A stretch of DNA of 64,000 nucleotides from a virus. Taxonomy: Duplodnaviria > Heunggongvirae > Uroviricota > Caudoviricetes. The DNA is taken from IMG/VR virus record IMGVR_UViG_3300035208_001992. One strand, written 5' to 3'. Positions 3,229-58,546 of the stretch are shown here, one piece after another. The position numbers and the translations under genes were made by a program. The first letter of the stretch is position 1; each line of letters starts with the position of its first letter. The notes below the pieces were generated by a model. The model had not been told where the DNA came from. It did no database searches and saw nothing but the letters and a program-made list of their open reading frames with translations.

Positions 3229-3241
3229 TATTTACAAAGTT
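3229..3241 (-). promoter_or_regulatory. AASNTTGTAAATA motif (putative phage promoter)
   Basis: AACTTTGTAAATA on the - strand, 6 nt before ATG 3222. Confidence 0.7.
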
Positions 3242-3259
3242 CTTTGAACGCGAGAAGAA

Positions 3260-3694
3260 TCAGCCGTTCTTGAGCACGCTGTGGAAAAGCTTGGGCGCCA
3301 GAATCATTGCGGATTCGTGCGTCTTGCCATCGACACCACGGATCGTGCGAGACTTCGAAGTACGAGTGTTGGGGTCATGCACGATCAGCGTGCAGATGAA
3401 TTGGCCATCGCCGACGACGTTGGTGTGGCGGGTTCTAACTGCTTCGTGCTTGACCTTGGCAGCCTTGACCTTCGGAGTCTTGGCGGGAGCGGCCTTGCCC
3501 TTTGCCACGGCCTTCGGAGCCTTCGCGGGAGCGGCCTTCGGAGCCTTCGCGGGAGCTGCCTTGACGGGAGCCTTGGGAGCCTTCGCAGGAGCGACCTTGG
3601 CAGGAGCCTTCGGAGCCTTTGCAGGTGCCTTCGCCGGTGCCTTCGGAGCCTTGGGAGCCTTGACAGCGTTGAGCGTGTGGGAGAGCTTGTTCAT
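3260..3694 (-). CDS. Histone H1-like Lys/Ala/Pro-rich protein
   Basis: KAP(K/A) tandem repeats; GAGGTG RBS before ATG 3694 (the track start at 3823 has no RBS). Confidence 0.75.
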   Translation of the reverse strand: MNKLSHTLNAVKAPKAPKAPAKAPAKAPKAPAKVAPAKAPKAPVKAAPAKAPKAAPAKAPKAVAKGKAAPAKTPKVKAAKVKHEAVRTRHTNVVGDGQFICTLIVHDPNTRTSKSRTIRGVDGKTHESAMILAPKLFHSVLKNG

Positions 3695-3737
3695 TGTACA
3701 CCTCTGATGTTTGCATGTTGGATTGTGAGTGGAAGCC

Positions 3738-3847
3738 AAAGTGGAAGAATTTGTGGCTTCCGATGGGTAGTACCCATATAAAATATAATCACACTTTAGT
3801 CTAAAGTAAATAGCCAAAGTCAACTTTTCACTAAAGCCTAAAGTGTG
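3738..3847 (-). promoter_or_regulatory. Regulatory region: leader motif GCCACAAATTCTTCCACTTT, sigma70-like TTTACT-17-TATATT promoter, and CACTTTAG half-sites
   Basis: Motif at 3738-3757; CTAAAGTGTGATTATATTTT at 3780-3799 is identical to 9698-9717; palindrome ACTTTAG-T-CTAAAGT at 3791-3807; hairpin ATGGGT-AGT-ACCCAT at 3763-3777. Confidence 0.65.
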
Positions 3848-3853
3848 TGCCTT

Positions 3854-4801
3854 TCAACTTTGTGCGAAGGCTAGGAATCCAGCTTTCTTCTTGTTGATGC
3901 CGTACCAAGATAGAAGCCTGTCGAGCGCTTGTATGTTACGTGCGCTGTACCGATGTACTAAGCGCACTGGTCTCAGTCTAATCCAGCGCTCCATGAATGC
4001 GATGTCGGTCTGCTTTGCGAACAACCGACTAATTAGTCGCTCGTTGCGGCGGGCTTCAAGCTCGCGGAATAGCGCGAACGCGTATTGCCGCTCGCCTGGG
4101 TTCTTCGTGCATCGAATGATCTCTTCACCAATGACGCGTGGCGTCACGCCTTTCACAGCTTTGCTAACATTGTCCGACTCGTCTCCGTAGATGATCTTCG
4201 CGAGTGCTAGCTTGCTGGGTTCAGTGATGCCGAACTTTGCTTCAAGATCAGCGATGGTGAAAGCTTTGTCTGGCTTCGAAATTACAGACACGCGATCGCT
4301 CATCAACGCCCACATGTCTCGATCTTCGGAAACGACCGTACAAGGCTTGTTCGACCGATGAACGAATGACGCGATCGCATCATCTGTTTCACCATTGTTC
4401 TCTGGCATCGTGATTGTGCATGATGGAATGTATTGCATCAATTCCATCAGATCTCGAACTCCATTGTACTCGACGTCACGCTCTGTGTCATCATGCCATG
4501 TGAGCGGCAGGACAAGCTTTGCCTTCACAGGACGTTTGCCTTTGTACAACGGATAGTGAGCTTGCCGAACAGCTCGATTTTCTTGTGCTGACATTACGAT
4601 GCAGACGCGCTTGCCAGATTTGAGACCAACGTAGTTAGCGGCAGCTTTGATCTTCGACAAGCCAATGTCAATAGCGTTTGTTGGGTAGCTCTGATCGTTC
4701 ATGAGTGTCCCGGCTGGGCCGCCTTCACAGCGGCCCACCAGGTTGTGCACGTCAAATACGAGATTGTGATCAGAATACTCGGGGTTACTGACCAGAGGCA
4801 T
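3854..4801 (-). CDS. 5'-3' exonuclease / RNase H (PIN/FEN, T4 RNase H or T5 D15-like)
   Basis: LVFDVHNL, ETDDAIAS, VVSEDRDMWAL, YGDESDNV acidic motifs; start inferred at MPLVSN, overlapping the topoisomerase A stop. Confidence 0.85.
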   Translation of the reverse strand: MPLVSNPEYSDHNLVFDVHNLVGRCEGGPAGTLMNDQSYPTNAIDIGLSKIKAAANYVGLKSGKRVCIVMSAQENRAVRQAHYPLYKGKRPVKAKLVLPLTWHDDTERDVEYNGVRDLMELMQYIPSCTITMPENNGETDDAIASFVHRSNKPCTVVSEDRDMWALMSDRVSVISKPDKAFTIADLEAKFGITEPSKLALAKIIYGDESDNVSKAVKGVTPRVIGEEIIRCTKNPGERQYAFALFRELEARRNERLISRLFAKQTDIAFMERWIRLRPVRLVHRYSARNIQALDRLLSWYGINKKKAGFLAFAQS

Positions 4802-10961: not shown

Positions 10962-11001
10962 TCTTTACAAAGTTTGCTCAATCATCAATGTTTACAAAGT
11001 T
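10962..11001 (-). promoter_or_regulatory. Two tandem variants of the AASNTTGTAAA motif
   Basis: AACTTTGTAAAGA at 10962-10974 and AACTTTGTAAACA at 10989-11001, both on the - strand. Confidence 0.55.
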
Positions 11002-11006
11002 AACGT

Positions 11007-11735
11007 TCAGTCGAATACAACCTCCTGACGTTTTTCATATTGAAGATCAATGACGCGAGCTTCAGATCTTCTGCGTTGTTGGAACGCAACAGCTTCAGGT
11101 CCTTCCCAACTATCATGGTACGTTGAGATGCGTTCTGCAAGCCTCTTCCAATTCTTTGAAGCAAGTGATGGCTTGATTGGTTTGACACTTCCTGTATGGA
11201 TCACGAAGCTTAGGGCTACTGTGCGCACTTCTGGAGGGGCGTCAACGAATGACGGAACTGACTGCTCGATGACTGACATATACTGTACGTATTGACGGAT
11301 CGCGATTTGGTGCTGCTCGCACTTGGTGATGGAGAAGTTTGGATGGCGCGCTACCCAGCGGCGGGCAGCGTCACCACGCAATCCGTTGGCTGACAATGCT
11401 TCCTTCAACATATGTGGAGACACAATCGGCTCAAGGATAGCTCTGACGCGCTTAGCGCCAGCATTACCTAAGTCGAGTCCTTGCGCAATTGTTGGTCCTG
11501 ATCGATCTGAAGGAACGTACGGAGTTAGACTTTCGCCTTCGAACGATCGCAAAATCTCGAGATGGACATTGAGTGTTGCTGCTTGCGTATCCCACTCACG
11601 ACATAGCTGCGCGTCATTGAATCCAACAACAGCCATGTCAAACTTATGTGATACGAATTCAAATGCTTGGCTCATCGAGATTGAGCTAGCAAACCCAACC
11701 ATTATTGCAACGGCTCGTCTAGTGATGTGTCTCAT
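11007..11735 (-). CDS. Pesticin C-terminal-type lysozyme (putative endolysin) with an N-terminal signal-like segment
   Basis: FEG..LTPYVPS..SGPTIAQGLDLG matches the pesticin-like muramidase YxP..SGxTIxxGxDLG motif; C-terminal RRRSEA. Confidence 0.8.
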   Translation of the reverse strand: MRHITRRAVAIMVGFASSISMSQAFEFVSHKFDMAVVGFNDAQLCREWDTQAATLNVHLEILRSFEGESLTPYVPSDRSGPTIAQGLDLGNAGAKRVRAILEPIVSPHMLKEALSANGLRGDAARRWVARHPNFSITKCEQHQIAIRQYVQYMSVIEQSVPSFVDAPPEVRTVALSFVIHTGSVKPIKPSLASKNWKRLAERISTYHDSWEGPEAVAFQQRRRSEARVIDLQYEKRQEVVFD

Positions 11736-27226: not shown

Positions 27227-27651
27227 AGTATCGTTTCAAAGTTGAGATCATGGATGATCTCGACGAACAAGGAACGGCTGGCTCAACACGCGTATATGTC
27301 GGTGACATCTCAATCTCTGAGCGTGACTTGATTCGCGCTATAGCAATGGTGATCGATCGCGTGCGTCAAGACGAACTTGCACTCTACATTTGCACGCGCA
27401 TGCAGAAAGGCGTTGCCGACATTATTGATGTTTTGCACGCTGTAGATGATGAATCACCTGCTGCAGTTGTTGAGCTCAATGGCAAAGCAGATCGGCACTA
27501 CCGTTGCATCGTTTCAGTCATTGATTGGACAACATGGTACTGCCTCCAAAGGCCGTCTACATCTGATCCTAGTGACATCGTTGAACTCAGCATCGTTGAA
27601 TCCAGCGATGACGACATTGAGAGAATACTTGAAGCAGTTGTAGGACGTTAA
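27223..27651 (+). CDS. Hypothetical protein
   Basis: AGGAGG RBS; coupled ORF. Confidence 0.7.
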   Translation: MKYRFKVEIMDDLDEQGTAGSTRVYVGDISISERDLIRAIAMVIDRVRQDELALYICTRMQKGVADIIDVLHAVDDESPAAVVELNGKADRHYRCIVSVIDWTTWYCLQRPSTSDPSDIVELSIVESSDDDIERILEAVVGR

Positions 27652-27667
27652 CATCCTGTAAACGAGC

Positions 27668-27680
27668 AAGTTTGTAAATA
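27668..27680 (+). promoter_or_regulatory. AASNTTGTAAATA motif
   Basis: AAGTTTGTAAATA, 71 nt before ATG 27752. Confidence 0.7.
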
Positions 27681-29498: not shown

Positions 29499-30142
29499 AC
29501 ATCTTTGCGCTGCACCATGATCCGGAGCAATGCGCAAAGTGGTACGTTGATCGTCACATTGTAAAGATGATCAATGAGAGTGCACAGCTGCTTTCAAACG
29601 CTGTGCACTTCCATACGCATCGCATAATAGCTAACAGCAATGGCAGCTTGATTTTGGCAAAGCCAGTTCTAGTATCATTGCCTAAGCCAACGCATTACAA
29701 TCACAAGTGTTCGATATGGACGATGCAATCTGGCGCCAACTTCAAGTGGCTCACCGAATTGCTCTCCGCGTTGCTATCGGAGTACACGTACCGGTACGAG
29801 CGCATTCACAAATACCAACGATTCCTAAAGACCTTCTCACAACATGCTGAACGTTTAGCACCTGGGCAATTGACGCCTTGGGCTCAGGCAATGCCAGCGT
29901 TCATGCAGTCCGATTCACCAAATTTTGTCCAAGTCATCGACAGCTATCGCAAGTACTATGCATGGTACAAATGGCATCTATGGCGTTGGAAGAACAGGAA
30001 GCCTCCAACATGGTTGACCGACAACAGTCATTGGCCACCATCTCCAAAATATGCCATCGATCGAAGACAATTTCACGCGAAGATGAGGCGAAGCTGGTTG
30101 CGGAAGCGCAACAAGGCGACAACAAAGCGCGTGGCAAATTAG
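29495..30142 (+). CDS. denV: Pyrimidine-dimer DNA glycosylase family (T4 endonuclease V-like)
   Basis: MNIFAL..DP..CA....DRHIVKMINESAQLLS, THYNHKC..W, AMP, YRKYY, WKNRKPP.W. Confidence 0.85.
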   Translation: MNIFALHHDPEQCAKWYVDRHIVKMINESAQLLSNAVHFHTHRIIANSNGSLILAKPVLVSLPKPTHYNHKCSIWTMQSGANFKWLTELLSALLSEYTYRYERIHKYQRFLKTFSQHAERLAPGQLTPWAQAMPAFMQSDSPNFVQVIDSYRKYYAWYKWHLWRWKNRKPPTWLTDNSHWPPSPKYAIDRRQFHAKMRRSWLRKRNKATTKRVAN

Positions 30143-30855
30143 TAAACGCTAACTTGCGATTCATCTATTCAGTTGCCTGCAAATTCATGAGTCCCATGGA
30201 CGAGCGATTTCCAGATGTATTTCAAGTTGGTTGCATGGGATTCATCACTGCAATCGAGCGCTTTGATCTAAACCGCGAGTTTAAGCTCATCAGTTACGCA
30301 GTTTGGTGGATCAGGCAAAGTATCACGTTCTATTTGAACAGTGACAACTTGATTCATATTCCGCAGAACTTGGTGTTAGCAAATCAGCAATATCGGAAGA
30401 AGCACAAGCGTCAGATTTCAGAAGGAACGCTTCCGCCGACCCTGCCGAACATTCCACGCGTTGTCAAGATTGACATGCAGCCATCGAGTCCATTAGACAG
30501 CTCGGACGTCAACGGCCAAGAGAACGCAGCGGTTATTGCTGCAATTCAACGCGCTGAATCAACGAATTTCGTGAGTCCAGAGCAAGAGCAAGTAGACAGT
30601 GACAAAGAACGAATGATTGAACAATGGCTTGGTTCAGTACTAGACACGCGCGAGAGACAAGTGCTGACATGCTACTTTGGTCTTGCTGATAACAATCAAT
30701 GGACACTGCAGGAGATTGGTAACGCGTTCAACATCTCACGCGAGCGCGTCCGTCAAATTCGTGATTTTGCTCTAAAGAAAATTCGTGCTAGAGTCGAGCT
30801 TCAAACACATAAAAACGCTAACCTGAAGCACGAAATGCTTCAATCAGGAGAATGA
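30010..30855 (+). CDS. RNA polymerase sigma-70 factor (regions 1.2, 2 and 4; start approximate)
   Basis: EDEAKL..AQQGD.KAR.KLVNANLRF, AIERFD...FKLISYAVWWIRQSI, LDTRERQVL..YFGL, TLQEIG..FNISRERVRQI. Confidence 0.92.
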   Translation: MVDRQQSLATISKICHRSKTISREDEAKLVAEAQQGDNKARGKLVNANLRFIYSVACKFMSPMDERFPDVFQVGCMGFITAIERFDLNREFKLISYAVWWIRQSITFYLNSDNLIHIPQNLVLANQQYRKKHKRQISEGTLPPTLPNIPRVVKIDMQPSSPLDSSDVNGQENAAVIAAIQRAESTNFVSPEQEQVDSDKERMIEQWLGSVLDTRERQVLTCYFGLADNNQWTLQEIGNAFNISRERVRQIRDFALKKIRARVELQTHKNANLKHEMLQSGE

Positions 30856-38149: not shown

Positions 38150-38162
38150 AACATTGTAAATA
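38150..38162 (+). promoter_or_regulatory. AASNTTGTAAATA motif, leaderless spacing
   Basis: AACATTGTAAATA-N6-ATG; no Shine-Dalgarno sequence. Confidence 0.75.
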
Positions 38163-38168: not shown

Positions 38169-39275
38169 ATGGGATCATGGGATACAATCATAGACATCGC
38201 GACGAGAGCCGATCGATATGCTAGACTCGGCCTCGACGCAGTTCCGCAAATCGTTGGTATAGTCAACGGATCTTGCGTCAATCCGAACATTGGCACAACC
38301 GAAATTCGATGCCAATGTCCGTTCCATCAATCAGACGATGGCGTGAGCCAAACGCTACGTATCAATCTCGACAGCGCTCATCGACTTGGTATCGGCTTCT
38401 TCAAGTGCTATAGTTGTCAAACGCATGGACATTTCAATGACCTAGCAGAGAAGCTTGGTGTCGATATGATCATGGGTGAGGCTAACCCTGAGATCAGAAA
38501 CATCCTGATTCCGCTTCGGCAACAGGCATTTGATTATCAGGGAGCGCCTCGCTTTGGCATGGAAGATCTTCCAGCAGACTTCTCTTGGGATCGTGGCAAA
38601 GGCATCATCATATCGAGCCGCGCGTTCAACATTGTCCAAGCACAGCTATGGCATACGCGTACAGCCGTTTGGAAGAGCAAAGAGAAGGTCGTCAAGTACG
38701 TTGACCAGACAACTAGTGAAGAGCTATCCAAAGTCGTCAACCAAATCTTAAAGGGCCCTGACAACAAACCGATCTTCGAGCGCTGGCAAGACGAAGATCG
38801 AATCTGGATGCCTGTCATTGATCGCGATGCTGTAGTTGCGCACGTAGCGGCGTTGATTGGCAAGCGACACTGGTTCAGCAAGAAGTATCTCAACGCCAAA
38901 GGCGAATGGCCAAAGCGTTACATCTGGCCACTGGATCAAATCATGCTGGCGATGCGAGAGCGTCGATACGTAGTGATCGTAGAAGGACCAGCAGATGCGC
39001 TGCGATTGATCGACAACGGTATACCAGCTATCGCTAACCTCGGTGTAAGCGCTTGGACTAGTGCCAAGGCAGAGATCATATCGGCGCACTACCAACGCGT
39101 GTTCGTGTGCATGGATCCAGACAGTGCAGGCGCTGGAGCACAGAAGCAGGTGATTGAGTCATTCGCAGGTTCAATACCAGCGCATGCAATCAGGCTGCCA
39201 AAGAAGGTCGATCCAGCTTCGTTCACTCCACAACAGCTTGAGAAATTCAAACGGCTAATTCAAGGAGAGCTATAA
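38169..39275 (+). CDS. dnaG: DNA primase (zinc finger plus TOPRIM)
   Basis: CPFH...CYSC zinc finger; VIVEGPADAL; CMDPDSAG (DxD); DP motif near the C-terminus. Confidence 0.9.
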   Translation: MGSWDTIIDIATRADRYARLGLDAVPQIVGIVNGSCVNPNIGTTEIRCQCPFHQSDDGVSQTLRINLDSAHRLGIGFFKCYSCQTHGHFNDLAEKLGVDMIMGEANPEIRNILIPLRQQAFDYQGAPRFGMEDLPADFSWDRGKGIIISSRAFNIVQAQLWHTRTAVWKSKEKVVKYVDQTTSEELSKVVNQILKGPDNKPIFERWQDEDRIWMPVIDRDAVVAHVAALIGKRHWFSKKYLNAKGEWPKRYIWPLDQIMLAMRERRYVVIVEGPADALRLIDNGIPAIANLGVSAWTSAKAEIISAHYQRVFVCMDPDSAGAGAQKQVIESFAGSIPAHAIRLPKKVDPASFTPQQLEKFKRLIQGEL

Positions 39276-41205: not shown

Positions 41206-41236
41206 GCCAACTTACAACTAACTGGAGAGGGCAATC

Positions 41237-42797: not shown

Positions 42798-42836
42798 CCA
42801 GCTGAATCACTACCACAGTAGATCAAGGACTAACGC

Positions 42837-47275: not shown

Positions 47276-48102
47276 TGCCATTCGTTCTTTCGTCAATCGA
47301 ACAGATGTGTGACGCAAACATTCGATCTGCGTGGCCACCTACTTGGGATCGTTCTTCTAAGAATGGTTCTAAGATGATTGGAGCGTTTGCAAAAGCGTTC
47401 TGCCAGGCACTTTCGAAGTCAATCAAAGATGCCACGATAAACGGAGGTACAATATCTGGCGGTGGCTCGCCTCCAGGCGGTCCTGTTGCAGGTGCAGTCC
47501 TTACGATACCTCCTGGTGGGCTTGTTGCCACACCACCAAAGATTAAGCCGGTTTTTGACTGTCCTGATTTCTCATCGCCAGATTCAAACAACGTCGATCA
47601 ACATGGCTCTTACGCCGCTTGGTTACGAGCTGTTGTTGAGCACTTGGACGACAGCATAGCAACGCAATGGAACATCTGGATAAAGACATGGACGTTGCCA
47701 TCTGGCGTTGCGCTTGGCGGCGTGGCAGCTTGGATACCTCCGTCATCAGCAGCCCCTGGTCCATGGACAGGAGGCACGATCACGCCTTTCATCTTCATGG
47801 GCCAAGGATCTAACTCGTCACCGGCGCTTGATCAACTTGCTCTAGTAACGGTCAGGACAGGCAAGGCAAAAACTGCCTATGTTGTAAGCGGCAGTGAAGT
47901 AGTTGGGAATGTGTCAGTAGCTGATGGCAACTCCAAGCAACTCATTGAATCAGTGGCAACAGGTTTCTCGAAAACGCTTGAACAGTTCTTCGAGCAAGTT
48001 ATGATCAAAGACCCGACTGGTTCAAGTGCAACTGGCACAGCATTTCCACCTGCAGGTATCGTGACTGGATCAATCACTGGCCTCAAGTTCGACGTCACAT
48101 AA
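47275..48102 (+). CDS. Gly/Pro-rich putative virion (baseplate tip) protein
   Basis: Coupled to the spike gene; three G-x-A/S-x-PP-G-G-type repeats. Confidence 0.55.
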   Translation: MPFVLSSIEQMCDANIRSAWPPTWDRSSKNGSKMIGAFAKAFCQALSKSIKDATINGGTISGGGSPPGGPVAGAVLTIPPGGLVATPPKIKPVFDCPDFSSPDSNNVDQHGSYAAWLRAVVEHLDDSIATQWNIWIKTWTLPSGVALGGVAAWIPPSSAAPGPWTGGTITPFIFMGQGSNSSPALDQLALVTVRTGKAKTAYVVSGSEVVGNVSVADGNSKQLIESVATGFSKTLEQFFEQVMIKDPTGSSATGTAFPPAGIVTGSITGLKFDVT

Positions 48103-48113
48103 CCTTGTAAATA
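48101..48113 (+). promoter_or_regulatory. AASNTTGTAAATA motif
   Basis: AACCTTGTAAATA upstream of the SD-led thyX gene. Confidence 0.7.
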
Positions 48114-48138
48114 GATCTGGTCCACAAGGAGAACATCG

Positions 48139-50326: not shown

Positions 50327-50329
50327 ACA

Positions 50330-50929
50330 ATGCACGCAACAACTGCAGACGCCATGCACAACGCGGCAAAGCTGATCGTCGCGAAGCTGCACGCAGGCTT
50401 CCGCCGTGTTTGCTCGTGCAATGCGTTCAGTGATCTGCACGTCAACAGTATCGAAGCGTCGCACGACGTTTTGTACGTATCGGTATGCTCTCGAGACAAG
50501 ACTTGCGCAAGAGACATCAATCTGCGCTTCAACATCTGTGGCACAGCAAAGAACGCGTTTGTTGGCGCGGTCTTCATGCATGACAAAGCGATCGTGATCA
50601 ATAGAGCGTTGTACGTTAACTCAACGTCGCTTGAGTTCATTGCGATCGGCAGCATCATTGGTCAGCACGTGATGCGTGAGCATTGCTTCTACTACGCAAT
50701 ATCAAGGTTGCGCACGTTTAGTGATCCTGCAGGTGTGATTGATTCGAGTGTCTTGTCCAACACAGGCATCACGCTTGCATGGAATGGCAGCCGTGGAAGC
50801 GCAGTACTTTCAACTGACAGTCTATCAATAAAGACCGCGATTGGAATCACGCGTATTGAGATGTCTCGTGAGGCGTTGACTGCGCCTGTGCAAGACATCC
50901 GTCAGCAAATCCGCAACGCAATTCACTGA
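50330..50929 (+). CDS. Hypothetical protein
   Basis: AAGGA RBS; 199 aa. Confidence 0.65.
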   Translation: MHATTADAMHNAAKLIVAKLHAGFRRVCSCNAFSDLHVNSIEASHDVLYVSVCSRDKTCARDINLRFNICGTAKNAFVGAVFMHDKAIVINRALYVNSTSLEFIAIGSIIGQHVMREHCFYYAISRLRTFSDPAGVIDSSVLSNTGITLAWNGSRGSAVLSTDSLSIKTAIGITRIEMSREALTAPVQDIRQQIRNAIH

Positions 50930-50932
50930 TTC

Positions 50933-52636
50933 ATGTTTGCTGTATTTAGGCGCGTCATTGACTGGTTTGACTCCGAAACTCGCTTGAATGAGGCCGAATA
51001 CGTCCAAATCAGTCGTTGGGCTGCTTTTCCTGGATCGTTTGGTCACGCGCTGTTTTGGTGGTTGATTCCACAAATTTTCCAGTTAGTAGAACTGGGCTGG
51101 GCCAGGATGGTAAACATCTTGGCCTTTTTGTTTTTCCCGTTGCTCGCTAGGCCTATCGGTGGAACGCGTCCTGCACTATTCAGGTTTTTGTGGATCACAT
51201 TTTGTACTTGGCAACTATTTGTATTCCCATGGATCATGTACCGGCTGAATGACTACAACCAGTACTGGCTTGTGAGTCTCGTATTCTTCAGTCTCTTGTC
51301 AACAGTGATGCTTCGTTCATTCGACATACTGTTAGTGACAGGAGCTGGAGCAATCGCAATACTCGTCACTGCTAGCGACGCGTACCATGCAAGACTCGGA
51401 CTGGTGTTCTCATCAATCACGTCATTCGCGTCGTTCTTTGGCATGGCGTACATCAGATACATACAACAAAGGCTTGTCACTGCTCGCATGAACTTAGCAT
51501 CAGCATACAAACAGTTGCAACAGACGAACGCGCTCAAAGACGAATTCATGCTCAACGTAGCACATGAACTTCGCACGCCACTCGCTGTAATGTCAGCAAT
51601 CATCGATCAGCTTGAGATTGACAAGCAATCCAAGCGCTACAAGTTGTTGATCGCAACTATGAATCAATTTAGTCGCCAGACAGACGAGTTGCTAAACGCC
51701 AATTCTCATAAGCCTGTAGTGTTAGACAGCACACGAATTGATGCAGCCGACTTCGTAAAAGATATTCATGAGATGTTCAGCGTCTTAGCTGCAGCTGATG
51801 GCATCGAACTAAGATCAATTGTGAAAACAAAGATCGTGTTCACTGCTGATCAAGGACGTTTGACTACAGCAATCTCGAATTTAGTCAGCAACGCGATTAA
51901 GTTCACAAAGGTTGGTGGACGTGTAGCAATAGTGATGAATGCAGATTACTCAGGTCATGTTTACATCAAAGTGAAGGACAATGGCATTGGCATCCCACAT
52001 GACAAGATAAAGCACATCTTCGAGCGGTACTACCAGATTGAGAACGGGTTAGCACGATCAGGCTTTGGCATTGGGCTTACGCTTGTCAAAGACATAGTCG
52101 ACGCGCACAATGGCGTGATCAGCGTCACGTCTGCTGAAGACGACGGAACAACGTTCATCGTGAAGCTACCAGCAAATGCTGAGATCATCGGCTCGAAGCC
52201 ATCAATGTCGATGATATCGCATGCGCAGTCTGTGAAGATCAAGTCAAGACTTGGCGATACAACTGCACTAGTCGTCGAAGACAATGCTACGTTGCGCCAG
52301 TTCATAGTCGATGTACTGACAGATGCTGGACTCAACGCAATCGGGCATGAATCACCAGTTACTGCTCTTGCATTCATAAGTTCGTCACAGCCCAAGCTGT
52401 CGCTCGTCATTTCTGACGTCGGACTTCCAGGCATGGATGGCTACGCTTTTATCAAAGCACTCCGCAACATCAGCGGTTACGAATCTACGCCTGTCGTGCT
52501 AGCGAGTGGTTACTCACGGCACGCAGTGCTGAACAACGTCAAAGATCTCAACGCGTCAGCGCTAGAGAAGCCGTTCAACCGGTACCAACTTATCGAACAC
52601 ATCAATACAACCTGCAATCTACAAAAGAACACGTGA
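50933..52636 (+). CDS. Membrane-bound hybrid sensor histidine kinase with a receiver domain
   Basis: Multi-transmembrane N-terminus; H-box AHELRTPL, N-box NLVSNAIKFT, G1 DNGIGI, F-box IFERYY, G2 GFGIGL; receiver VVEDN, ISDVGLPGMDG, LEKPF. Confidence 0.93.
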   Translation: MFAVFRRVIDWFDSETRLNEAEYVQISRWAAFPGSFGHALFWWLIPQIFQLVELGWARMVNILAFLFFPLLARPIGGTRPALFRFLWITFCTWQLFVFPWIMYRLNDYNQYWLVSLVFFSLLSTVMLRSFDILLVTGAGAIAILVTASDAYHARLGLVFSSITSFASFFGMAYIRYIQQRLVTARMNLASAYKQLQQTNALKDEFMLNVAHELRTPLAVMSAIIDQLEIDKQSKRYKLLIATMNQFSRQTDELLNANSHKPVVLDSTRIDAADFVKDIHEMFSVLAAADGIELRSIVKTKIVFTADQGRLTTAISNLVSNAIKFTKVGGRVAIVMNADYSGHVYIKVKDNGIGIPHDKIKHIFERYYQIENGLARSGFGIGLTLVKDIVDAHNGVISVTSAEDDGTTFIVKLPANAEIIGSKPSMSMISHAQSVKIKSRLGDTTALVVEDNATLRQFIVDVLTDAGLNAIGHESPVTALAFISSSQPKLSLVISDVGLPGMDGYAFIKALRNISGYESTPVVLASGYSRHAVLNNVKDLNASALEKPFNRYQLIEHINTTCNLQKNT

Positions 52637-52667
52637 TTACTAACGTAATAGCAGGACGGAGCAGGCC

Positions 52668-53294
52668 ATGGGTAACGATGCAATGCAAGAAACAGAATCA
52701 ACAAAACGTTTTCCAGTTTCGTTGAGTGAGCTGTCAGAGCGATCAAACAATCTGGTGATGAAGCTGCGCATGGAGTGCAAGCAACCAGCTCTCGCAGATG
52801 ATCTGCGTGGTCTCTTTGACCAATATGCTTGGGTTGTTCGGCTACATCAACTTGCAGCGGAAGAGAGCGCTGATCGTCGCGAAGTTGCTGACTTGCAATT
52901 CGCTCACGAGACGCTCGCTGCGACATCACCTGACATGATGGACGTTGTCCACTTCGCAGCTGACGTCGAGAAGTTCAGTCCGCGTCTTGCAACCACTGCA
53001 CGACAGCTACTCACAATGCTCACATGCGGACAGGTTGACGAGAGCGCGTTCTACTTGGATCAACCTGAAGATACTCCAAATTCTGTCGACTACACAGCGT
53101 CTAAACCGATGCCAAATACATGGCGTAAGGTACAGCGCGATCATGAGATACTGTTAGCTCTAGTCCGTGGATATCGCTTCCTACTCGAAGCTGATGACCG
53201 CACGTTGCGACATCATCGCATGACGCGCTTGAAGCTGATTCGCAGCATTAGAGGTATTGAGGTACGCGCTGCAGCGAAGGGGACAGTTGTCTAA
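52668..53294 (+). CDS. Hypothetical protein
   Basis: 208-aa ORF with a GGAG RBS. Confidence 0.65.
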   Translation: MGNDAMQETESTKRFPVSLSELSERSNNLVMKLRMECKQPALADDLRGLFDQYAWVVRLHQLAAEESADRREVADLQFAHETLAATSPDMMDVVHFAADVEKFSPRLATTARQLLTMLTCGQVDESAFYLDQPEDTPNSVDYTASKPMPNTWRKVQRDHEILLALVRGYRFLLEADDRTLRHHRMTRLKLIRSIRGIEVRAAAKGTVV

Positions 53295-54056
53295 ATGTCA
53301 AGACCACCAATCATACGGTTGCCGGCAAAGGCTGAGTTCTATCGGACTCTTAGCATACTTTGGTTGCGCTATGAGCAAGGCTGCCACGTAATCACGTGCG
53401 AGCGCTCACCAGTGATCAAAGGAAGTCGGCCAGACGTACTTGGATTGAATCGATCGAACCAATTGATCGAAGTTGAGATCAAAGTCGATCTTCGTGACAT
53501 GCAACATGATGAACAGAAAGATCTACGCAAGAAGCTCATGACTGACGTTGGGCGTTCACGCCCGGCTACAGCTAACTACTTGTATTACTTCGTGCGTGAG
53601 GACATGGTTGCAGCAGCACTCTCTGATTTGCCAGAGCACTGCGGAGTTCTTTCGCCGCACCACGGCGTGAAGATGCAAGGGACTGGATTGCCAGTCGTTG
53701 CTGTTCATCGTAAGGCTGTCCAAATACATGATGTCAAACTTGATCAAACAGCCGTCAAGAAGATGGTTGCGCAGCAAGCAAGTACGCTCGCACGCTTCGC
53801 TGTCGAGATTGTCTATGGCAAGCTCATGAATGATCCATCGAGCAAAGAGGCAGTGAAGATTGGACTATCTGAATCTGTGCCGAGTCCAGGCGGAATCAGC
53901 CCGCCGGAGGCGATTTTTGATGAAGGCGACCGCACGGCTCGCAAGCTATCAGGATACGGGCTTGATCCACAATGGTCAAACCGAAAACAGCAGCCAACCG
54001 TCCAGCAACGATCAAGTGGACCACGCGTGGTCGCCGCAAAGATTGTAAATAGCTAA
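53295..54056 (+). CDS. MmcB-like PD-(D/E)XK nuclease
   Basis: RPDVLGL...IEVEIKVDLRDMQHD..K, NYLYYFV, LPEHCGVL. Confidence 0.7.
   Translation: MSRPPIIRLPAKAEFYRTLSILWLRYEQGCHVITCERSPVIKGSRPDVLGLNRSNQLIEVEIKVDLRDMQHDEQKDLRKKLMTDVGRSRPATANYLYYFVREDMVAAALSDLPEHCGVLSPHHGVKMQGTGLPVVAVHRKAVQIHDVKLDQTAVKKMVAQQASTLARFAVEIVYGKLMNDPSSKEAVKIGLSESVPSPGGISPPEAIFDEGDRTARKLSGYGLDPQWSNRKQQPTVQQRSSGPRVVAAKIVNS
54039..54051 (+). promoter_or_regulatory. AASNTTGTAAATA motif, leaderless spacing
   Basis: AAGATTGTAAATA-N6-ATG of polA; lies inside the end of the upstream gene; no Shine-Dalgarno sequence. Confidence 0.75.
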
Positions 54057-54057
54057 C

Positions 54058-56865
54058 ATGCAGGCCACCAAGATCGAGCCATTCATTGCGCCAACAGAGC
54101 AAGGACGCGTAAGTGTTCTTTGCATAATTGCAGCCTCGGACGTAGCGTTTTCGGCTGACCCGATATACGGGCGCTTCTTTGATGTGATGAGTCGGAAAGT
54201 GACAACAGGCTGGGCGATTCACGCGCTAGATACAAACCCGCGCAAGCTCGAGTCAACGTCAGAAGTCGATGCAATCGTTGATCAGCATCGCAATCGTCTA
54301 TGGCGCATGGTTGATCACTACAAGCCACAAGTGGTTGTCGTGTTCGGTGCGAATACGATGAAGGCGATCAATCCTGACTTGCGCATGGTCTCGAACAGAC
54401 ACATTGCGCACTACATTCATCAAATCAAATCTCCGCTGACACAGCGTGACACTGCGTTCCTATGCATGACGCAGCCACGCACAATCATTACCAATCCGTT
54501 TGAAGCGCTTACAGCGAAGGAAGACTTCGTCAAGCTCAACATGCTGGCTCGTGGCAAGCATTATTGGCGTGAAGGCGAGATAGTAGATCTTAACACGAGC
54601 AAGGCTGCTGAAGAGTACATCGACTTCTTGCTTGAAGATCATAAGGGATGGGTTGCGTACGATACCGAAACGCGCAACCTGAACATGGCTCACAACAACA
54701 TTCTTGGCACCATGCAATTCGCAACGGATGACAAGACTGGATATGTGCTCTATTGGGACCACATCTACAACAAGCGTGACAAAGAGCATGACCTTCGTGT
54801 ATTGACGCCTAAGTTGAAGCGCTTGTTTGGCGGCAAATCTAACATCGCTGGTTGGGCGATGCACAACGCCCAATTCGATATTGCGCAGACTCGAAACCAT
54901 TTCGATATCGGATGGTGGTCGAAGACAGTTTTTGATACGCTGCTGTACACACATCATCTTGATCAGAATCGGAATGACAAATCCCGCAAGGGAGCTATGG
55001 TCTATTCCGAGGGTGGATACTCGCTTAAGCAGTGCGCATGCGAGTTCATCGGATACCGTGGATACGACGCTGAAACACTAGTGAGTCGTAAAGACGGTGG
55101 CGTGCTAGATCTGCCATACGACAAGTTGACGCGCTATGCTGGCCAGGACGGTTTCGTCACTTACCGTTTGCTTACGTACTTGCAATCTTGGGCAGCAGCG
55201 CAAGGCGTGAAAGACAAAGTGAATCGCTTCAGTCGCGTGATTCACTCAGGCGCGATCAAGGCGTTCCAGCAGATCACTAAGAACGGCATGGAAGCTGATC
55301 CAAAACAGCTTGCGATGCTAGCGCGACCTGGGTCAATTCTTGACGTCGAATCGAAGCGCATTGACGCGCTGTTTAAGCAAGATCCTGTAGTACAAAAGAT
55401 CAATCTTGAGCTTCTCAAGAAGAAGACTAACGCAACGACGTTCTGGGAAGTTCCCTGGATCTTCGATATCGGCAAGCCTGCTAGTCGTAATCTGCTGTTC
55501 TTCACGAGTCCAAGTGGCCGTCAGTATCCAAAGAATGACGACGGCAAGTACTCATGCGATGACAAGTTCCAAGATCGCTACAAGGATCAGGATCCACTTG
55601 TTGGACTGCTTGCTACGTACTCAGAAATCCAGAAGCTTCGCTCGTCTTACGTAAACAAGATCAGCATCGCGCTGCATACGGCGAAGCACAACAAGACCGA
55701 CCTCATCGATGGTCGTGTTCATTCGCGCTTCTTGCTTCACGGCACAAAGACCGGGCGTCTATCATCTGTCGGCCCAAACATGCAGCAAGTGCCGCGTGCC
55801 GACAACGAGTACAAGAAGCCAGTCAAATCGATCTTTACGACCCCAACTGGTACGATCATTCTCCAAGGCGACTTCGCTGCGGCAGAGGTTCGTATGTGGG
55901 GTTCTTTGAGTCAGGACGCATTCCTATGCAAGCTACTCACTGACTCTTTCAACAAACGAGCAGCGTACAGAGCTAACCCGCTAGACGAACGTTTACGCGA
56001 CGAAGCCGAATTGATGGCAGACATTCACAAGCAGACTGCTTCGTTGATGTTTGGCATTGATCTCAAGGCTGTCACTAAAGACATTCGTACGATCACGAAG
56101 GGCATCACGTTCGGTTTGATCTATGGCCGCGGTCGCAAGTCAATTGCTGTCCAGCTCAAGCGATCCGAAGAAGAGACCGGACAGCTTTGCGACAAGTTCT
56201 TTAGCCAGTTCCCAGGTGGCGTTGCATGGCTTGAAGAGCAAAAGGAATTCTGCAAGCGCTACGGTTTCGTTGAGACACCATTTGGTCGACGCCGCTACCT
56301 TCCATGGGTCTTCTCTGAGGACGAAGGATTTGCAGCGTCAGCGCTGCGTCAGTCAATCAATACTCCTGTGCAGTCAGCATCAGGAGACTTTGCCACGCTG
56401 TCGATTGCCTTGCTCAATGAAGAGATTGCTCGCAAGAGACTATCTCATCAGTTCAAGCTTGTGAACGCTGTGCATGACTCCACACTGTTGGAGATACCAG
56501 CATCTGTCGATGCTCTGGCAGAAGCCACAGCTATGATGCGACACAATTTTACAGTCAAGTCACGCGAAGTCTGCGCATCTGAATTTGGCTTCGACACAGC
56601 CGCTCCAATGGACATCGATATTGAAGTGTCTCAGTGGAAAGCTAAGCGCTGTCCTAAGTGTGGCAATCAGTACAAGTTCCACAAAGAGAAGTGTGACGCA
56701 GTTTTGAAAGGTCCAGATAAAAAGCCGCTCAAGGATTCAGACGGCAATGATGTAAAATGTGGCAATCGCGATTTTGAGGTCGTGAAGCTCAATGGGGGTT
56801 GGGGAACCTTGATCAACTTGGACGAAACAATGTCTGGGTATCGAGCCGCCGCTCTTGGATTCTGA
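54058..56865 (+). CDS. polA: DNA polymerase family A with an N-terminal UDG-like domain, 3'-5' exonuclease and a C-terminal Cys4 insert
   Basis: Exonuclease motifs YDTET, HNAQFD, YAGQD; TGRLSSVGPNMQQVP; motif A GDFAAAEVR; motif B RTITKGITFGLIYG; motif C NAVHDS. Confidence 0.95.
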   Translation: MQATKIEPFIAPTEQGRVSVLCIIAASDVAFSADPIYGRFFDVMSRKVTTGWAIHALDTNPRKLESTSEVDAIVDQHRNRLWRMVDHYKPQVVVVFGANTMKAINPDLRMVSNRHIAHYIHQIKSPLTQRDTAFLCMTQPRTIITNPFEALTAKEDFVKLNMLARGKHYWREGEIVDLNTSKAAEEYIDFLLEDHKGWVAYDTETRNLNMAHNNILGTMQFATDDKTGYVLYWDHIYNKRDKEHDLRVLTPKLKRLFGGKSNIAGWAMHNAQFDIAQTRNHFDIGWWSKTVFDTLLYTHHLDQNRNDKSRKGAMVYSEGGYSLKQCACEFIGYRGYDAETLVSRKDGGVLDLPYDKLTRYAGQDGFVTYRLLTYLQSWAAAQGVKDKVNRFSRVIHSGAIKAFQQITKNGMEADPKQLAMLARPGSILDVESKRIDALFKQDPVVQKINLELLKKKTNATTFWEVPWIFDIGKPASRNLLFFTSPSGRQYPKNDDGKYSCDDKFQDRYKDQDPLVGLLATYSEIQKLRSSYVNKISIALHTAKHNKTDLIDGRVHSRFLLHGTKTGRLSSVGPNMQQVPRADNEYKKPVKSIFTTPTGTIILQGDFAAAEVRMWGSLSQDAFLCKLLTDSFNKRAAYRANPLDERLRDEAELMADIHKQTASLMFGIDLKAVTKDIRTITKGITFGLIYGRGRKSIAVQLKRSEEETGQLCDKFFSQFPGGVAWLEEQKEFCKRYGFVETPFGRRRYLPWVFSEDEGFAASALRQSINTPVQSASGDFATLSIALLNEEIARKRLSHQFKLVNAVHDSTLLEIPASVDALAEATAMMRHNFTVKSREVCASEFGFDTAAPMDIDIEVSQWKAKRCPKCGNQYKFHKEKCDAVLKGPDKKPLKDSDGNDVKCGNRDFEVVKLNGGWGTLINLDETMSGYRAAALGF

Positions 56866-56981
56866 AAACGAACGAACCCGGTTTATCCGGAAACGTCCTA
56901 ACTCTTCTTCGAGCAGCTTCTGGCAAGGTGCTGGCAGCAGTTCGAAACAATCAACAAATCCCAAATCAGGAGAATATCATC

Positions 56982-57311
56982 ATGGCAACTGACAAGAAAG
57001 CCAAGATCGCCGAAATCAAGTCGAACACGAGCAAGAAGGTCGCTGACCTCCAGGCCAAGATCAAGGAAGTCAAGGCCGGTGCCGCGACCAAGATCGCCGG
57101 ACTGAAGGGCGCTTCCGTCAAGGCTCCCAAGGCTGTCAAGGTCGACAAGGCTCCCAAGGCTGTCAAGGCTCCCAAGGCTGTCAAGGCTCCCGTCGGCGCT
57201 CCCAAGGCTCCCAAGGCTCCTGCTGCCGCTGCGCCCAAGGCCCCCAAGCTCTCCGCAGCAGTTGTGGCTCCTCGCGCGCCCAAGGCTCCTGCCAAGGCTC
57301 CTCGGTCGTAA
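56982..57311 (+). CDS. Histone H1-like Lys/Ala/Pro-rich protein
   Basis: AGGAG RBS; basic helical N-terminus, then KAPKAV repeats (DNA repeat AAGGCTCCCAAGGCTGTC); own terminator. Confidence 0.8.
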   Translation: MATDKKAKIAEIKSNTSKKVADLQAKIKEVKAGAATKIAGLKGASVKAPKAVKVDKAPKAVKAPKAVKAPVGAPKAPKAPAAAAPKAPKLSAAVVAPRAPKAPAKAPRS

Positions 57312-57336
57312 TTCAAAAAATCCATTCGTGGACAGA

Positions 57337-57372
57337 GGCTCAGGAACGAAAGTTCCTGGGCCGTTTTTGTTT
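57337..57372 (+). terminator. Rho-independent terminator with a GAAA tetraloop
   Basis: GGCTCAGGAAC-GAAA-GTTCCTGGGCC-GTTTTTGTTTT. Confidence 0.85.
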
Positions 57373-57401
57373 TACAACTAACCAAATCATAGAGGTTCAA
57401 C

Positions 57402-57836
57402 ATGCCAAATGAAGGTCAACAAGACGTAGCGCCCAATGAGACTGGAGATCAAGCTACGCGTCAAGGCAATCCTGATCGGCGTCAAGCACGACGCAATCGA
57501 ACTGACCGCGAAGCAGAACAGCCTTTTGCACCGTGTTCTATGGGCAGTCAACCAATACAGCGTCACATGTCATTGCATTCGGCTCCAATAGAAATGCCTA
57601 CTACATCACGGCCAACCGGTGATCGCGTCACTGATTTTCTACGTGAGAGACAAGAGACAGGTCGCAGTCCGATTCGAGCGCGAATCGTTGGCATCACACT
57701 TGATGAATCGACGTACGGCGTACTTGTTCGCATCGACGAAATACTACGTTGGCGCAATGAGCTCAAAAACGATACGGCTGTACTTGATCGCATTGAGCAA
57801 GTGTTTGTTGATCGATTTAGGTCAATCGTTGACTGA
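57402..57836 (+). CDS. Hypothetical protein
   Basis: GAGGT RBS; 144 aa. Confidence 0.6.
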   Translation: MPNEGQQDVAPNETGDQATRQGNPDRRQARRNRTDREAEQPFAPCSMGSQPIQRHMSLHSAPIEMPTTSRPTGDRVTDFLRERQETGRSPIRARIVGITLDESTYGVLVRIDEILRWRNELKNDTAVLDRIEQVFVDRFRSIVD

Positions 57837-57840
57837 CACA

Positions 57841-57853
57841 AACTTTGTAAATA
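57841..57853 (+). promoter_or_regulatory. AASNTTGTAAATA motif, leaderless spacing
   Basis: AACTTTGTAAATA-N6-ATG; no Shine-Dalgarno sequence. Confidence 0.75.
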
Positions 57854-57859
57854 TCTAAC

Positions 57860-58546
57860 ATGACCACAATACGCCTCCGGTCGAATGCATTCTATTTCAA
57901 GCTCAACGAGCATCAACGCGCTTGCTACAATGCAGGCCTTCCGACTAACTTCATGGGCAGGTCAATTGACGAAGCCGTGTTTAGTCCTTACGTCGTTGGT
58001 GACTTGAGGAAGATTCGTTCTTCTGCTCATAAGCAGAAAAGTCAGTTACAGAGCTTCGTACAAAGCCTGTCGAATTCAAGCAATTACGTAGCTTCAATTG
58101 CAATTCATTCCGCTCCAACAGACGAGTCTGCTTTCGGCGTGGCTTCTGCCATATTCGAACACGCTGTTGAAGGTGGACTTGCATGTCAATGCATATCGAC
58201 ATCTCAGTTGCTCAATCACGAAAAGATCGAGCCAAAAGATGTCTACCTGATTCACGGCGTCAACGACCAGCCAAACCCGCAGGCCGTCTGGGCTGTCCGT
58301 GATTTCATTCGTGACCGCGACGGTAGTCTCAGGATTGTGGTGATGACATCAGGACACGATCTTCCGGTTGACGTATTGATCCATGAGCGACTGCGGATGC
58401 ACTTCGACTATCTCTTCTGCTTAGAAGACAACGTTCAGCTCATCTCAACTGAAGCTGTTGCTGGCAAGCGCATGCGCGCAATCGAAGTCGGCACCGCAGC
58501 TCCGAAACCACCAGTAGCGCGGCGCTTAGTCGGAGGCAAGTCCTGA
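57860..58546 (+). CDS. DnaC/IstB-like helicase loader, apparently without an intact Walker A
   Basis: Position before dnaB; P-loop-like secondary pattern (IAIHSAPT; VYLIHGVND; IVVMTSG) without GKT. Confidence 0.5.
   Translation: MTTIRLRSNAFYFKLNEHQRACYNAGLPTNFMGRSIDEAVFSPYVVGDLRKIRSSAHKQKSQLQSFVQSLSNSSNYVASIAIHSAPTDESAFGVASAIFEHAVEGGLACQCISTSQLLNHEKIEPKDVYLIHGVNDQPNPQAVWAVRDFIRDRDGSLRIVVMTSGHDLPVDVLIHERLRMHFDYLFCLEDNVQLISTEAVAGKRMRAIEVGTAAPKPPVARRLVGGKS

What the first reader, a model, noticed from the sequence alone, without database searches (positions are those of the whole stretch)
3229..57860. AASNTTGTAAATA-N6-ATG: a putative phage promoter producing leaderless mRNAs for core replication genes
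Seen: the 13-mer AA(C/G)NTTGTAAATA occurs at 3229-3241(-), 27668, 38150, 48101, 54039 and 57841. In four cases (primase, PolA, the DnaC-like gene heading the dnaB/clamp block, and ATG 3222) an ATG follows after exactly 6 nt, and the three replication genes have no SD. The other two copies precede SD-led genes. Variants occur at 10962, 10989, 17186(-) and 17638. Known: T4 late promoters are a lone -10 box (TATAAATA) read by a phage sigma, and leaderless mRNAs start at the AUG and initiate on 70S ribosomes. Inference: a phage sigma drives a leaderless replication regulon, which could keep replisome synthesis going when SD-led translation is shut down, for example by host MazF-type stress or by the phage itself. 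I did not count every occurrence of the motif.
Basis: partly seen in the sequence, partly recalled or inferred. Interest (0 to 1): 0.75.

Follow-up and report, generated by a model that had tools for sequence, protein, structure and literature searches.

The report
Phage promoter placed for leaderless replication genes
A 13-base signal in an uncultured giant phage is almost certainly its own promoter for DNA-metabolism genes, and at several replication genes it sits exactly 6 bases before the ATG, in this phage and in its relatives, so these messages probably have no leader. This kind of design is already known from other phages, and no RNA 5' end has been mapped here.

Summary
AASNTTGTAAATA occurs 6 times in the window against 0 expected. 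The core TTGTAAATA occurs 13 times in the 278-kb phage record. All 13 copies point along local transcription, and 10 lie in the 9% of the record that is non-coding.

An ATG follows after exactly 6 nt at 5 of the 13 copies (P about 3e-6), four of them in the window. These ATGs are the first possible start codons of their ORFs. The four in the window lack a Shine-Dalgarno (SD) sequence, while 48-70% of the phage's genes have one.

The decisive new evidence is comparative. In about seven uncultured relatives (41-71% protein identity), the orthologous primase, PolA, loader-like gene and a 350-aa gene keep motif-N6-start while the spacer sequence drifts. thyX keeps a 25-33-nt leader with a strong SD in all five lineages. 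More distant relatives lack the motif and have an SD instead.

The motif also precedes a tRNA gene and has no -35 partner. The base at the predicted +1 is a purine even at leadered copies.

The promoter reading and the leaderless geometry are therefore well supported, though no TSS data exist. The idea that this protects replisome synthesis from translation shut-off has no support. An earlier follow-up in this scan had already called the TGTAAA core a promoter on the neighbouring window, and the scan has reported similar leaderless phage promoters on other DNA.

The parts
3229..3241 (-). Promoter 13-mer AACTTTGTAAATA, followed by 6 nt and then ATG 3222.
   Evidence: Orthologues L033 and L034 keep motif-N6-ATG.
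2170..3222 (-). 350-aa ORF of unknown function with DDDFGDF-type acidic repeats; predicted leaderless.
   Evidence: ATG 3222 is the first start codon in the ORF. The N-terminal 47 aa are conserved in relatives (A2). There is no SD (dG +0.4). The automatic gene call in the source is truncated to 303 aa.
27647..27662 (+). Second motif GTTAAC-N4-TGTAAA, lying just upstream of a class-I copy; a possible tandem promoter of another class.
   Evidence: The same arrangement occurs at 7 other genome sites and in relative L033.
27668..27680 (+). Promoter 13-mer with a 71-nt leader to the SD-led gene 27752-28795. This heads the block that holds the RNase T-like gene and the sigma gene.
29878..30855 (+). 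Sigma-70-family gene with regions 2 and 4; a candidate reader of the motif.
   Evidence: PF04542 3e-12, PF04545 2e-15.
38150..38162 (+). Promoter 13-mer AACATTGTAAATA, followed by 6 nt and then ATG 38169.
   Evidence: The geometry is conserved in L010 and L011 (N6) and in L014 (N7).
38169..39275 (+). DnaG-type primase (Toprim); predicted leaderless.
   Evidence: No SD (dG +0.5). The N-terminus MGSWDT is conserved.
48101..48113 (+). Promoter 13-mer with a 25-nt leader and an AAGGAG SD before thyX (48139-49839).
   Evidence: thyX is leadered with an SD in all 5 lineages.
54039..54051 (+). Promoter 13-mer AAGATTGTAAATA inside the last codons of the upstream ORF, followed by 6 nt and then ATG 54058.
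   Evidence: N6 is conserved in L019, L016, L018 (GTG start) and L023.
54058..56865 (+). Family-A DNA polymerase with a 3'-5' exonuclease domain; predicted leaderless. The upstream ORF stops 1 nt before the ATG.
57841..57853 (+). Promoter 13-mer AACTTTGTAAATA, followed by 6 nt and then ATG 57860.
   Evidence: N6 is conserved in L019, L016, L017, L018/L022 and L023/L028.
57860..58546 (+). 228-aa conserved protein abutting dnaB, with a weak DnaC/IstB/Hda-like fold and no Pfam or PHROG match; predicted leaderless.
58546..60012 (+). DnaB-type helicase, the second gene of the predicted leaderless operon.
   Evidence: PF03796 7e-27.
10962..10997 (-). Tandem variants: GTTAACTTTGTAAACA, then AAACTTTGTAAAGA.

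Best explanation
AAC-N-TTGTAAA(T/G)A is the single, -10-like recognition element of a phage-specific promoter class. It drives the DNA replication, recombination and nucleotide-metabolism genes of an uncultured 278-kb phage and its relatives. It is probably read by host core RNA polymerase carrying one of the phage's two sigma-70-family factors (inferred). If TAAATA occupies -12 to -7, transcription should start 7 nt after the motif. In a conserved subset of genes the A of the start codon sits exactly there: primase, PolA, the loader-like/DnaB operon, a 350-aa acidic-repeat protein, and, outside the window, an SbcC-like gene and a 130-aa gene. Their mRNAs would therefore begin at or within a base or two of AUG, have no SD, and be translated as leaderless mRNAs. 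Other genes of the same class (thyX, RecA/UvsX-like, RNR, dUTPase-like, the sigma block) have ordinary 25-160-nt leaders with an SD. Shown: the motif statistics, orientation, intergenic placement, lack of SD, first-start status, and conservation of the spacing across relatives. Inferred: the transcription start point, the sigma involved, and leaderless translation itself.
For: Motif statistics and placement:
- 10 of 13 copies lie in the 9% non-coding DNA.
- One copy lies 26 nt upstream of a tRNA-Glu gene, so the signal acts on transcription and not translation.
- There is no -35 element. In 47 aligned sites from this phage and its relatives, information is confined to the 13-mer. Sigma-70 consensus promoters are not enriched (16 against 16.8 expected).

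Geometry at the start codon:
- ATG is at offset +6 in 5 of 13 copies, P = 3e-6.
- In Deinococcus, a -10 motif 6-7 bp from the ORF has been shown experimentally to mark leaderless genes (PMC12340547).
- The phiEco32 gp36 sigma reads a single 9-mer, with the TSS 6-8 bp downstream (PMC8948821).
- Every N6 start is the first in-frame start codon. The N-termini are conserved from residue 2.
- The window's N6 genes have no SD (dG -0.9 to +0.9), while 48-70% of all genes reach dG <= -5 against 8% of random sites.

Comparative evidence:
- Motif-N6-start is kept while the spacer sequence changes. This holds at primase in 3 of 4 relative lineages, the loader-like gene in 5 of 5 at 50% identity or more, PolA in 4 of 5, and the 350-aa gene in 2 of 2.
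- thyX is always leadered with an SD.
- Relatives at 37-41% identity lack the motif before the loader-like gene and have GAGGG, AGGAGG or GGGAGG instead.
- Position -1 is a pyrimidine in 22 of 23 N6 sites. At 25 leadered sites the equivalent N7 base is a purine in 20 (P 0.004), which fits +1 at that position.
- 22 of 23 N6-class starts are ATG.
- The first 45 nt of N6 genes are less structured than those of other genes (mean -5.4 against -7.1 kcal/mol, one-sided P 0.004; the sites are not independent).
Against: No 5' end has been mapped, and no RNA run holds this DNA. The TSS could lie 1-2 nt either side of the A, and a start downstream of it would exclude the AUG. The element lacks the T at -7 of sigma-70 -10 boxes, so the assumed register is an analogy. 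PolA's ATG lies 1 nt after the upstream stop codon, so translational coupling on read-through transcripts could also serve it. One orthologous PolA start is GTG, which is poor for leaderless initiation in E. coli although it is used in mycobacteria. Both sigma genes carry a region 4, yet no -35 element is seen. The cultured distant relative PaBG shows no excess of GTAAAKR-N6-ATG (2 against 1 for the control).
Confidence: 0.68

Rival explanations
1. The motif is a promoter, but the N6 genes are mainly translated from longer read-through, polycistronic transcripts, by termination-reinitiation or SD-independent internal initiation. On this view the promoter sits at the junction only because the genome is compact, and it mainly serves the genes further downstream.
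For: The upstream ORFs end 1 nt (PolA), 23 nt (loader-like), 43 nt (primase) and 37 nt (350-aa gene) before the ATG. No terminator lies directly upstream of the N6 sites in the window. In relative L016 the upstream gene's stop codon is the TAA inside the motif.
Against: Compaction alone does not explain an exact 6-nt spacing kept in about seven lineages while the spacer sequence drifts, nor the Y(-1)/R(+1) pattern. Where the motif is lost, an SD appears (also L012 and L017 PolA). Gaps of 23-43 nt without an SD are poor for coupling.
Confidence: 0.17
2. The element acts in RNA. It would be either an SD-independent ribosome-recruiting or enhancer sequence, or a cleavage site for an endoribonuclease that trims mRNAs to the AUG.
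For: It is A/U-rich and lies where an SD would lie. In relatives the K-R positions read AAGG or AAGGAGG, which can pair with the anti-SD (L010, L019, L017).
Against: The same element lies 25-160 nt upstream of genes that have their own strong SD, and 26 nt before a tRNA gene. The TAAATA form used in this phage cannot pair with the anti-SD. No MazF-type nuclease was found in the record.
Confidence: 0.08
3. The element is read not by a sigma holoenzyme but by a divergent phage RNA polymerase that Pfam cannot detect, with a different distance from promoter to start.
For: The record is only about 74% complete. Giant-phage RNA polymerases are very divergent. The control for the T7-type family did not ring in any genome.
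Against: There are no matches to RNAP beta or beta' domains, although these rang in all 14 control genomes. Two sigma-70-family genes are present, and one is conserved in relatives next to this gene block.
Confidence: 0.07

Closest known systems
Leaderless middle/late transcripts of Thermus phage phiYS40 (Sevostyanova et al. 2007, as summarised in PMC3594737)
   Same: It is a large phage whose own promoter class puts the transcription start at the start codon, so that many phage mRNAs lack a leader and an SD.
   Different: In phiYS40 most middle and late genes are leaderless, the host phylum uses leaderless mRNAs widely, and IF2/IF3 levels change on infection. Here only a conserved subset of one promoter class is leaderless, most phage genes use an SD, and no change in translation factors is known.
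-10-motif leaderless genes of Deinococcus-Thermus (PMC12340547) and of Actinobacteria (PMC4633059, PMC3160421)
   Same: A -10-type element ends 6-7 bp before the ORF, there is no SD, and there is a spacing requirement.
   Different: Those are host housekeeping promoters of the form TANNNT. This is a phage-specific 13-mer with an invariant TGTAAA core and no T at -7.
phiEco32 gp36-dependent middle/late promoters (tAATGTAtA; PMC8948821)
   Same: There is a single conserved element of about 9 bp without a -35, the phage encodes a sigma-family factor, and the TSS lies 6-8 bp downstream.
   Different: gp36 lacks region 4, whereas the sigma genes here have one. The sequence differs. No leaderless design was found in the passages of that paper read here.
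T4 late promoters (TATAAATA; gp55, gp33, gp45)
   Same: It is a lone 8-bp A/T-rich box centred near -10, and TGTAAATA differs from it at one base.
   Different: The G at position 2 is invariant here. The genes driven are DNA-metabolism genes, not virion genes. The phage sigmas are of the two-domain sigma-70 type. T4 late mRNAs are leadered.
Jumbo phages with mapped TSSs: phiKZ (PMC8244752) and AR9 (PMC5312081)
   Same: They are giant phages with their own promoter classes.
   Different: phiKZ showed no leaderless transcript, and AR9 has 5' UTRs of 26-491 nt. Both use phage multisubunit RNA polymerases, and none was found here.

Membership tests
Leaderless genes marked by a -10 element next to the ORF | A -10-like element ends 6-7 nt upstream of the start codon. 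| tested here: met
   Spacing is exactly 6 nt at 6 sites in this genome and 17 in relatives, and 7 nt at one.
Leaderless genes marked by a -10 element next to the ORF | There is no Shine-Dalgarno sequence before the start codon. | tested here: met
   Duplex dG is -0.9 to +0.9 for the four window genes, against <= -5 in 48-70% of all genes. Two sites outside the window have an AAGGA that is misplaced or lies within the motif.
Leaderless genes marked by a -10 element next to the ORF | The start codon is the true N-terminus. | tested here: met
   It is the first in-frame start after a stop. Residues from position 2 onward are conserved in orthologues.
Leaderless genes marked by a -10 element next to the ORF | The primary transcript's 5' end lies on, or within a few nt of, the A of AUG. 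| not testable with these tools
   No RNA run holds this DNA and the phage is uncultured.
Single-element promoters read by a phage-encoded sigma (phiEco32 gp36 type) | There is one conserved element near -10 and no -35 element. | tested here: met
   Information content above 0.4 bit upstream of the start is confined to positions -4 to +8 of the 13-mer in 47 sites.
Single-element promoters read by a phage-encoded sigma (phiEco32 gp36 type) | A phage-encoded sigma is present and is responsible. | tested here: inconclusive
   Two sigma-70-family genes are present. Which one reads the motif, if either, is untested.
T4-type late promoters | The consensus is TATAAATA. | tested here: not met
   The core is TGTAAA(T/G)(A/G), and the G is invariant in 47 of 47 sites.
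T4-type late promoters | They drive late (virion) genes through a gp55-type minimal sigma. | tested here: not met
   The downstream genes are primase, PolA, DnaB, ThyX, RNR, RecA/UvsX-like, SbcC-like and dUTPase-like. The sigmas found have regions 2 and 4. A gp55 homologue was not searched for specifically.
Canonical sigma-70 promoter | TTGACA, 16-18 nt, then TATAAT with T at -7. | tested here: not met
   There is no -35. Position -7 would be A or G. Consensus sites are not enriched.

The most novel reading that the evidence does not exclude
In this clade of giant phages, the choice between leaderless and SD-led translation is fixed gene by gene within one promoter class and has been conserved through more than 50% protein divergence. 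Primase, PolA and the loader/DnaB operon are leaderless, and thyX is SD-led. That would mean leaderless initiation is used as a separate translational channel for the replisome.
Probability: 0.15. Interest if true: 0.7.

Novelty: new member of a known kind. Interest (0 to 1): 0.5.

Why it matters
It gives a concrete, testable promoter consensus and predicted start points for a whole lineage of uncultured giant phages from landfill, groundwater and wastewater samples. It shows that gene callers mis-place such starts: the 350-aa gene is recorded as 303 aa. It also offers a clean natural contrast between leaderless and SD-led genes under one promoter class, conserved gene by gene, for asking why a phage in an SD-using host makes its replisome from leaderless mRNAs. 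The two giant phages with mapped TSSs, phiKZ and AR9, have no leaderless transcripts, so this would be a different expression strategy among giant phages. The principle itself is already known from phiYS40, Deinococcus and mycobacteria.

Tried and rejected
- RNA evidence: no RNA holder was listed for window 48050-58040.
- Close relatives in IMG/VR by peptide patterns: none for the primase or the loader-like protein alone. Relatives were reached instead through the protein database and contig look-ups and through an alignment-based scan.
- Cultured relatives: the nearest are at only 23-29% identity, namely PaBG, Lu11, Yoloswag and Dickeya JA11. PaBG shows no excess of GTAAAKR-N6-ATG (2 against 1 for the control), so the leaderless design cannot be tested there by sequence.
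- Chance was rejected.
- The SD-substitute reading was rejected, because the motif also occurs far upstream of SD-led genes and before a tRNA.
- MazF-type trimming at ACA was considered. Only the sites with the spacer ...AAC before ATG contain ACA, and no PemK/MazF gene was found.
- GTTAAC as a -35 partner was rejected on spacing: it lies 22 nt from TAAATA, and only 4 nt from its own TGTAAAC.
- The Atlas search for the 350-aa protein gave nothing usable.
- The phiYS40 primary paper is not held in the library.
Full report
**Source and layout.** The window is bases 152,034-216,033 of a 278,473-bp IMG/VR virus record, linear, with a CheckV completeness estimate of 74%. My crude gene calls give three strand blocks: minus to 169,214, plus to 228,067, then minus. 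About 91% of the record is coding. The nearest cultured phages are only 23-29% identical in PolA and primase: Erwinia Yoloswag, Pseudomonas Lu11 and PaBG, and Dickeya JA11. The DNA is held by landfill and groundwater metagenomes, with partial matches in wastewater runs and no RNA run.

**Observation.** AASNTTGTAAATA occurs six times in the window, at exactly the stated places, against 0.00 expected. The 9-mer core gives six matches against 0.11 expected.
- Across the whole record the 9-mer occurs 13 times, against one for the reversed control.
- All 13 copies point in the direction of the local gene block. TGTAAATA is 15 co-oriented against 0 anti-oriented.
- Ten of the 13 copies lie in the 9% of the record that I predict to be non-coding. 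Two lie in the last 14 nt of an upstream ORF, and one is intragenic.
- An ATG follows at offset +6 in five of the 13 copies. No other offset up to 60 has more than two (binomial P = 3e-6).
- A sixth N6-ATG uses the variant TTGTAAAGG, at genome 103,075(-).
- A TTGTAAAGA at 29559 is a coding coincidence.

**What the motif precedes.** The exact-core copies precede these genes:
- a RecA/UvsX-like recombinase;
- an SbcC-like protein;
- the 350-aa protein;
- a block holding an RNase T-like gene and a sigma-70-family gene;
- primase, ThyX and PolA;
- the loader-like gene followed by DnaB;
- a dUTPase-like gene;
- the large subunit of ribonucleotide reductase.

This is a DNA-metabolism class, not a virion class. 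A variant copy lies 26 nt upstream of a tRNA-Glu gene.

**Anatomy.** I aligned 47 sites from this phage and its relatives. Information is confined to 13 positions, A-A-C-t-T-T-G-T-A-A-A-K-A, and G-T-A-A-A is invariant. There is no -35-like block. Sigma-70 consensus promoters are not enriched in 37,950-57,900 (16 against 16.8 expected). The record encodes two sigma-70-family proteins. One is clear, with regions 2 and 4 (window 29878-30855). The other is weak (genome 97,373-97,522). Nothing matches the RNAP beta, beta' or T7-type families, subject to the limits of Pfam and of a 74% complete record.

**Are the N6 ATGs real starts without an SD?** Each is the first possible start codon of its ORF.
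- Orthologous proteins align from residue 2. The primase starts MGSWDT, the loader-like protein starts M..(I/L)RLRSNAFYF, and the 350-aa protein starts MD.S......TNPLLSLISS.
- The source's own gene call for the 350-aa gene starts at Met48, giving 303 aa. This is the typical error when no SD is present.
- Anti-SD duplex energies for the four window genes are -0.9 to +0.9 kcal/mol. By contrast, 48-70% of all predicted genes reach -5 or lower, against 8% of random positions. thyX scores -8.5.

**Comparative test.** This is the main new evidence. Protein searches found uncultured relatives, and I fetched their DNA.
- Primase: motif-N6-ATG in two relatives at 67% identity. In a 42% relative whose consensus is GTTCGTAAATA, the spacing is 7 nt. 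A 51% relative instead has a hairpin with a T-run and AAGGA before the ATG.
- Loader-like gene: motif-N6-ATG in all five lineages of 50-71% identity, with spacers tctaac, gctaac, aggttc, ataggc and acaggt. The three contigs at 37-41% identity lack the motif and have GAGGG, AGGAGG or GGGAGG.
- PolA: N6 in four of five lineages, once with GTG. The fifth has GGAG before a GTG, with a motif copy about 30 nt upstream.
- 350-aa gene: N6 in both relatives, at 58% and 41% identity.
- thyX: in all five lineages the motif lies 25-33 nt upstream and a strong SD follows.
- Other genes in relatives also carry motif-N6-ATG. Examples are a 774-aa gene in L033 and 296- and 300-aa genes in the most distant contigs, where the core is CCGTAAATA. 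Another is a gene in L011 whose orthologue in this window instead starts with a GTG that overlaps the upstream stop.

So the spacing is conserved while the spacer sequence is not. The leaderless or leadered state is largely a property of the orthologous gene, and loss of the motif goes with gain of an SD.

**Where would transcription start?** If TAAATA is taken as -12 to -7, then +1 is the seventh base after the motif, which is the A of the ATG. A -10 motif 6-7 bp from the ORF is the experimentally validated mark of leaderless genes in Deinococcus (PMC12340547). The phiEco32 phage sigma starts 6-8 bp after its single 9-mer element (PMC8948821).
- In 23 N6-class sites the base before the start codon is a pyrimidine in 22, and the start codon is ATG in 22.
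- In 25 leadered sites the seventh base is a purine in 20 (P 0.004). It is the only spacer position with that bias apart from a frequent A at the fourth position.
- The first 45 nt of the N6 genes fold less stably than those of other genes (-5.4 against -7.1 kcal/mol). These sites are related to each other, and the control starts are crude.

**What is not supported.** Nothing shows which sigma reads the motif. The T4-late comparison fits the shape of the box but not its sequence, its gene class or the type of sigma. The proposed purpose, keeping replisome synthesis going during a shut-off of SD-led translation, has no evidence. No MazF/PemK, IF3 or S21 homologue was found, and half the promoter class is SD-led.

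PolA's ATG lies one base after the upstream stop codon, so coupling on read-through transcripts may contribute there. The label 'DnaC-like' rests on position next to dnaB and on a weak fold resemblance to DnaC, IstB and Hda (TM 0.44-0.49, E >= 0.009, model pLDDT 72). There is no family match and no Walker A motif. The 378-aa 'clamp' ORF has no Pfam match.

**Comparison with what is known.** Phage promoter classes that yield leaderless mRNAs are established for Thermus phage phiYS40 (review PMC3594737). Leaderless genes marked by a -10 box next to the ORF are established in Deinococcus-Thermus and in mycobacteria (PMC12340547, PMC4633059). In contrast, phiKZ showed no leaderless transcript and AR9 has UTRs of 26-491 nt.

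This scan had already called the TGTAAA core a promoter on the neighbouring window (e1-1732017). It has also reported several other phage promoters placed for leaderless mRNAs on other DNA. I therefore file this as a new member of a known kind. What it adds is a new consensus, a giant-phage lineage, and gene-by-gene conservation of the leaderless state in a phage that otherwise uses SD sequences.

**Verdict.** The promoter reading is very likely (about 0.9), and leaderless transcripts at the N6 genes are likely (about 0.7). The physiological rationale is untested (about 0.15).

Noticed in passing
window 27647-27662 (+); also window 10989(-); genome 76815, 111447, 126747, 148973, 238042 and 255628 (all -); L033 near 2190 and 16290: A second motif, GTTAAC-N4-5-(C/T)GTAAAC, lies 10-15 nt upstream of many class-I copies and is kept in a relative. 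It looks like a tandem promoter of another class sharing the GTAAA core, perhaps read by the other sigma.
   Followed up: partly
window 2170-3222 (-): The 350-aa protein carries several DDDFGDF-type acidic repeats between a conserved 47-aa N-terminus and a conserved C-terminal domain, and it matches no family. The source's gene call is truncated to 303 aa, starting at Met48.
   Followed up: partly
L012:5785-5835 (primase of a 51% relative): The N6 arrangement is replaced here. A GTGTAAAGG copy is followed by a hairpin with a T-run and then AAGGA-N5-ATG. This is a natural switch from the leaderless to the leadered form of the same gene.
   Followed up: partly
L011:1539-1556 versus window 29495: A gene beginning MNIFALH has TTGTAAATA-N6-ATG in the relative. 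In this window it starts with a GTG that overlaps the upstream stop (GTGA), so initiation by coupling and the leaderless design interchange between lineages.
   Followed up: partly
window 17188 (-) and 17642 (+): Two outward-facing copies of AACGTTGTAAAAGAG lie in the only divergent intergenic region of the window. This is a third variant of the core.
   Followed up: no
window 57337-57372 (+): A strong terminator-like hairpin (11 pairs, then GTTTTTGTTT) lies between PolA and the 144-aa gene that precedes the loader-like promoter.
   Followed up: no
L017:5112-9110 and L023:296 onward: The PolA orthologues are 1332 and 1272 aa, against 935 aa here. L017 has a faint intein-splicing hit, so some relatives probably carry intein insertions.
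   Followed up: no
genome 123002-135930 (outside the window): There is a cluster of 16 tRNA genes on the minus strand. One tRNA-Glu lies 26 nt downstream of a motif copy.
   Followed up: partly
window 11007-11735 (-): This ORF has a pesticin/phage-lysozyme-like C-terminal domain (PF16754, 1e-6).
   Followed up: no
spacers and flanks of many motif copies: The pentamer CTAAC recurs both just upstream of the core (CTAACATTGTAAATA at 38148 and at two other genome sites) and in the 6-nt spacer (gCTAAC or tCTAAC before the PolA and loader-like ATGs, in several lineages). Its meaning is unknown.
   Followed up: no
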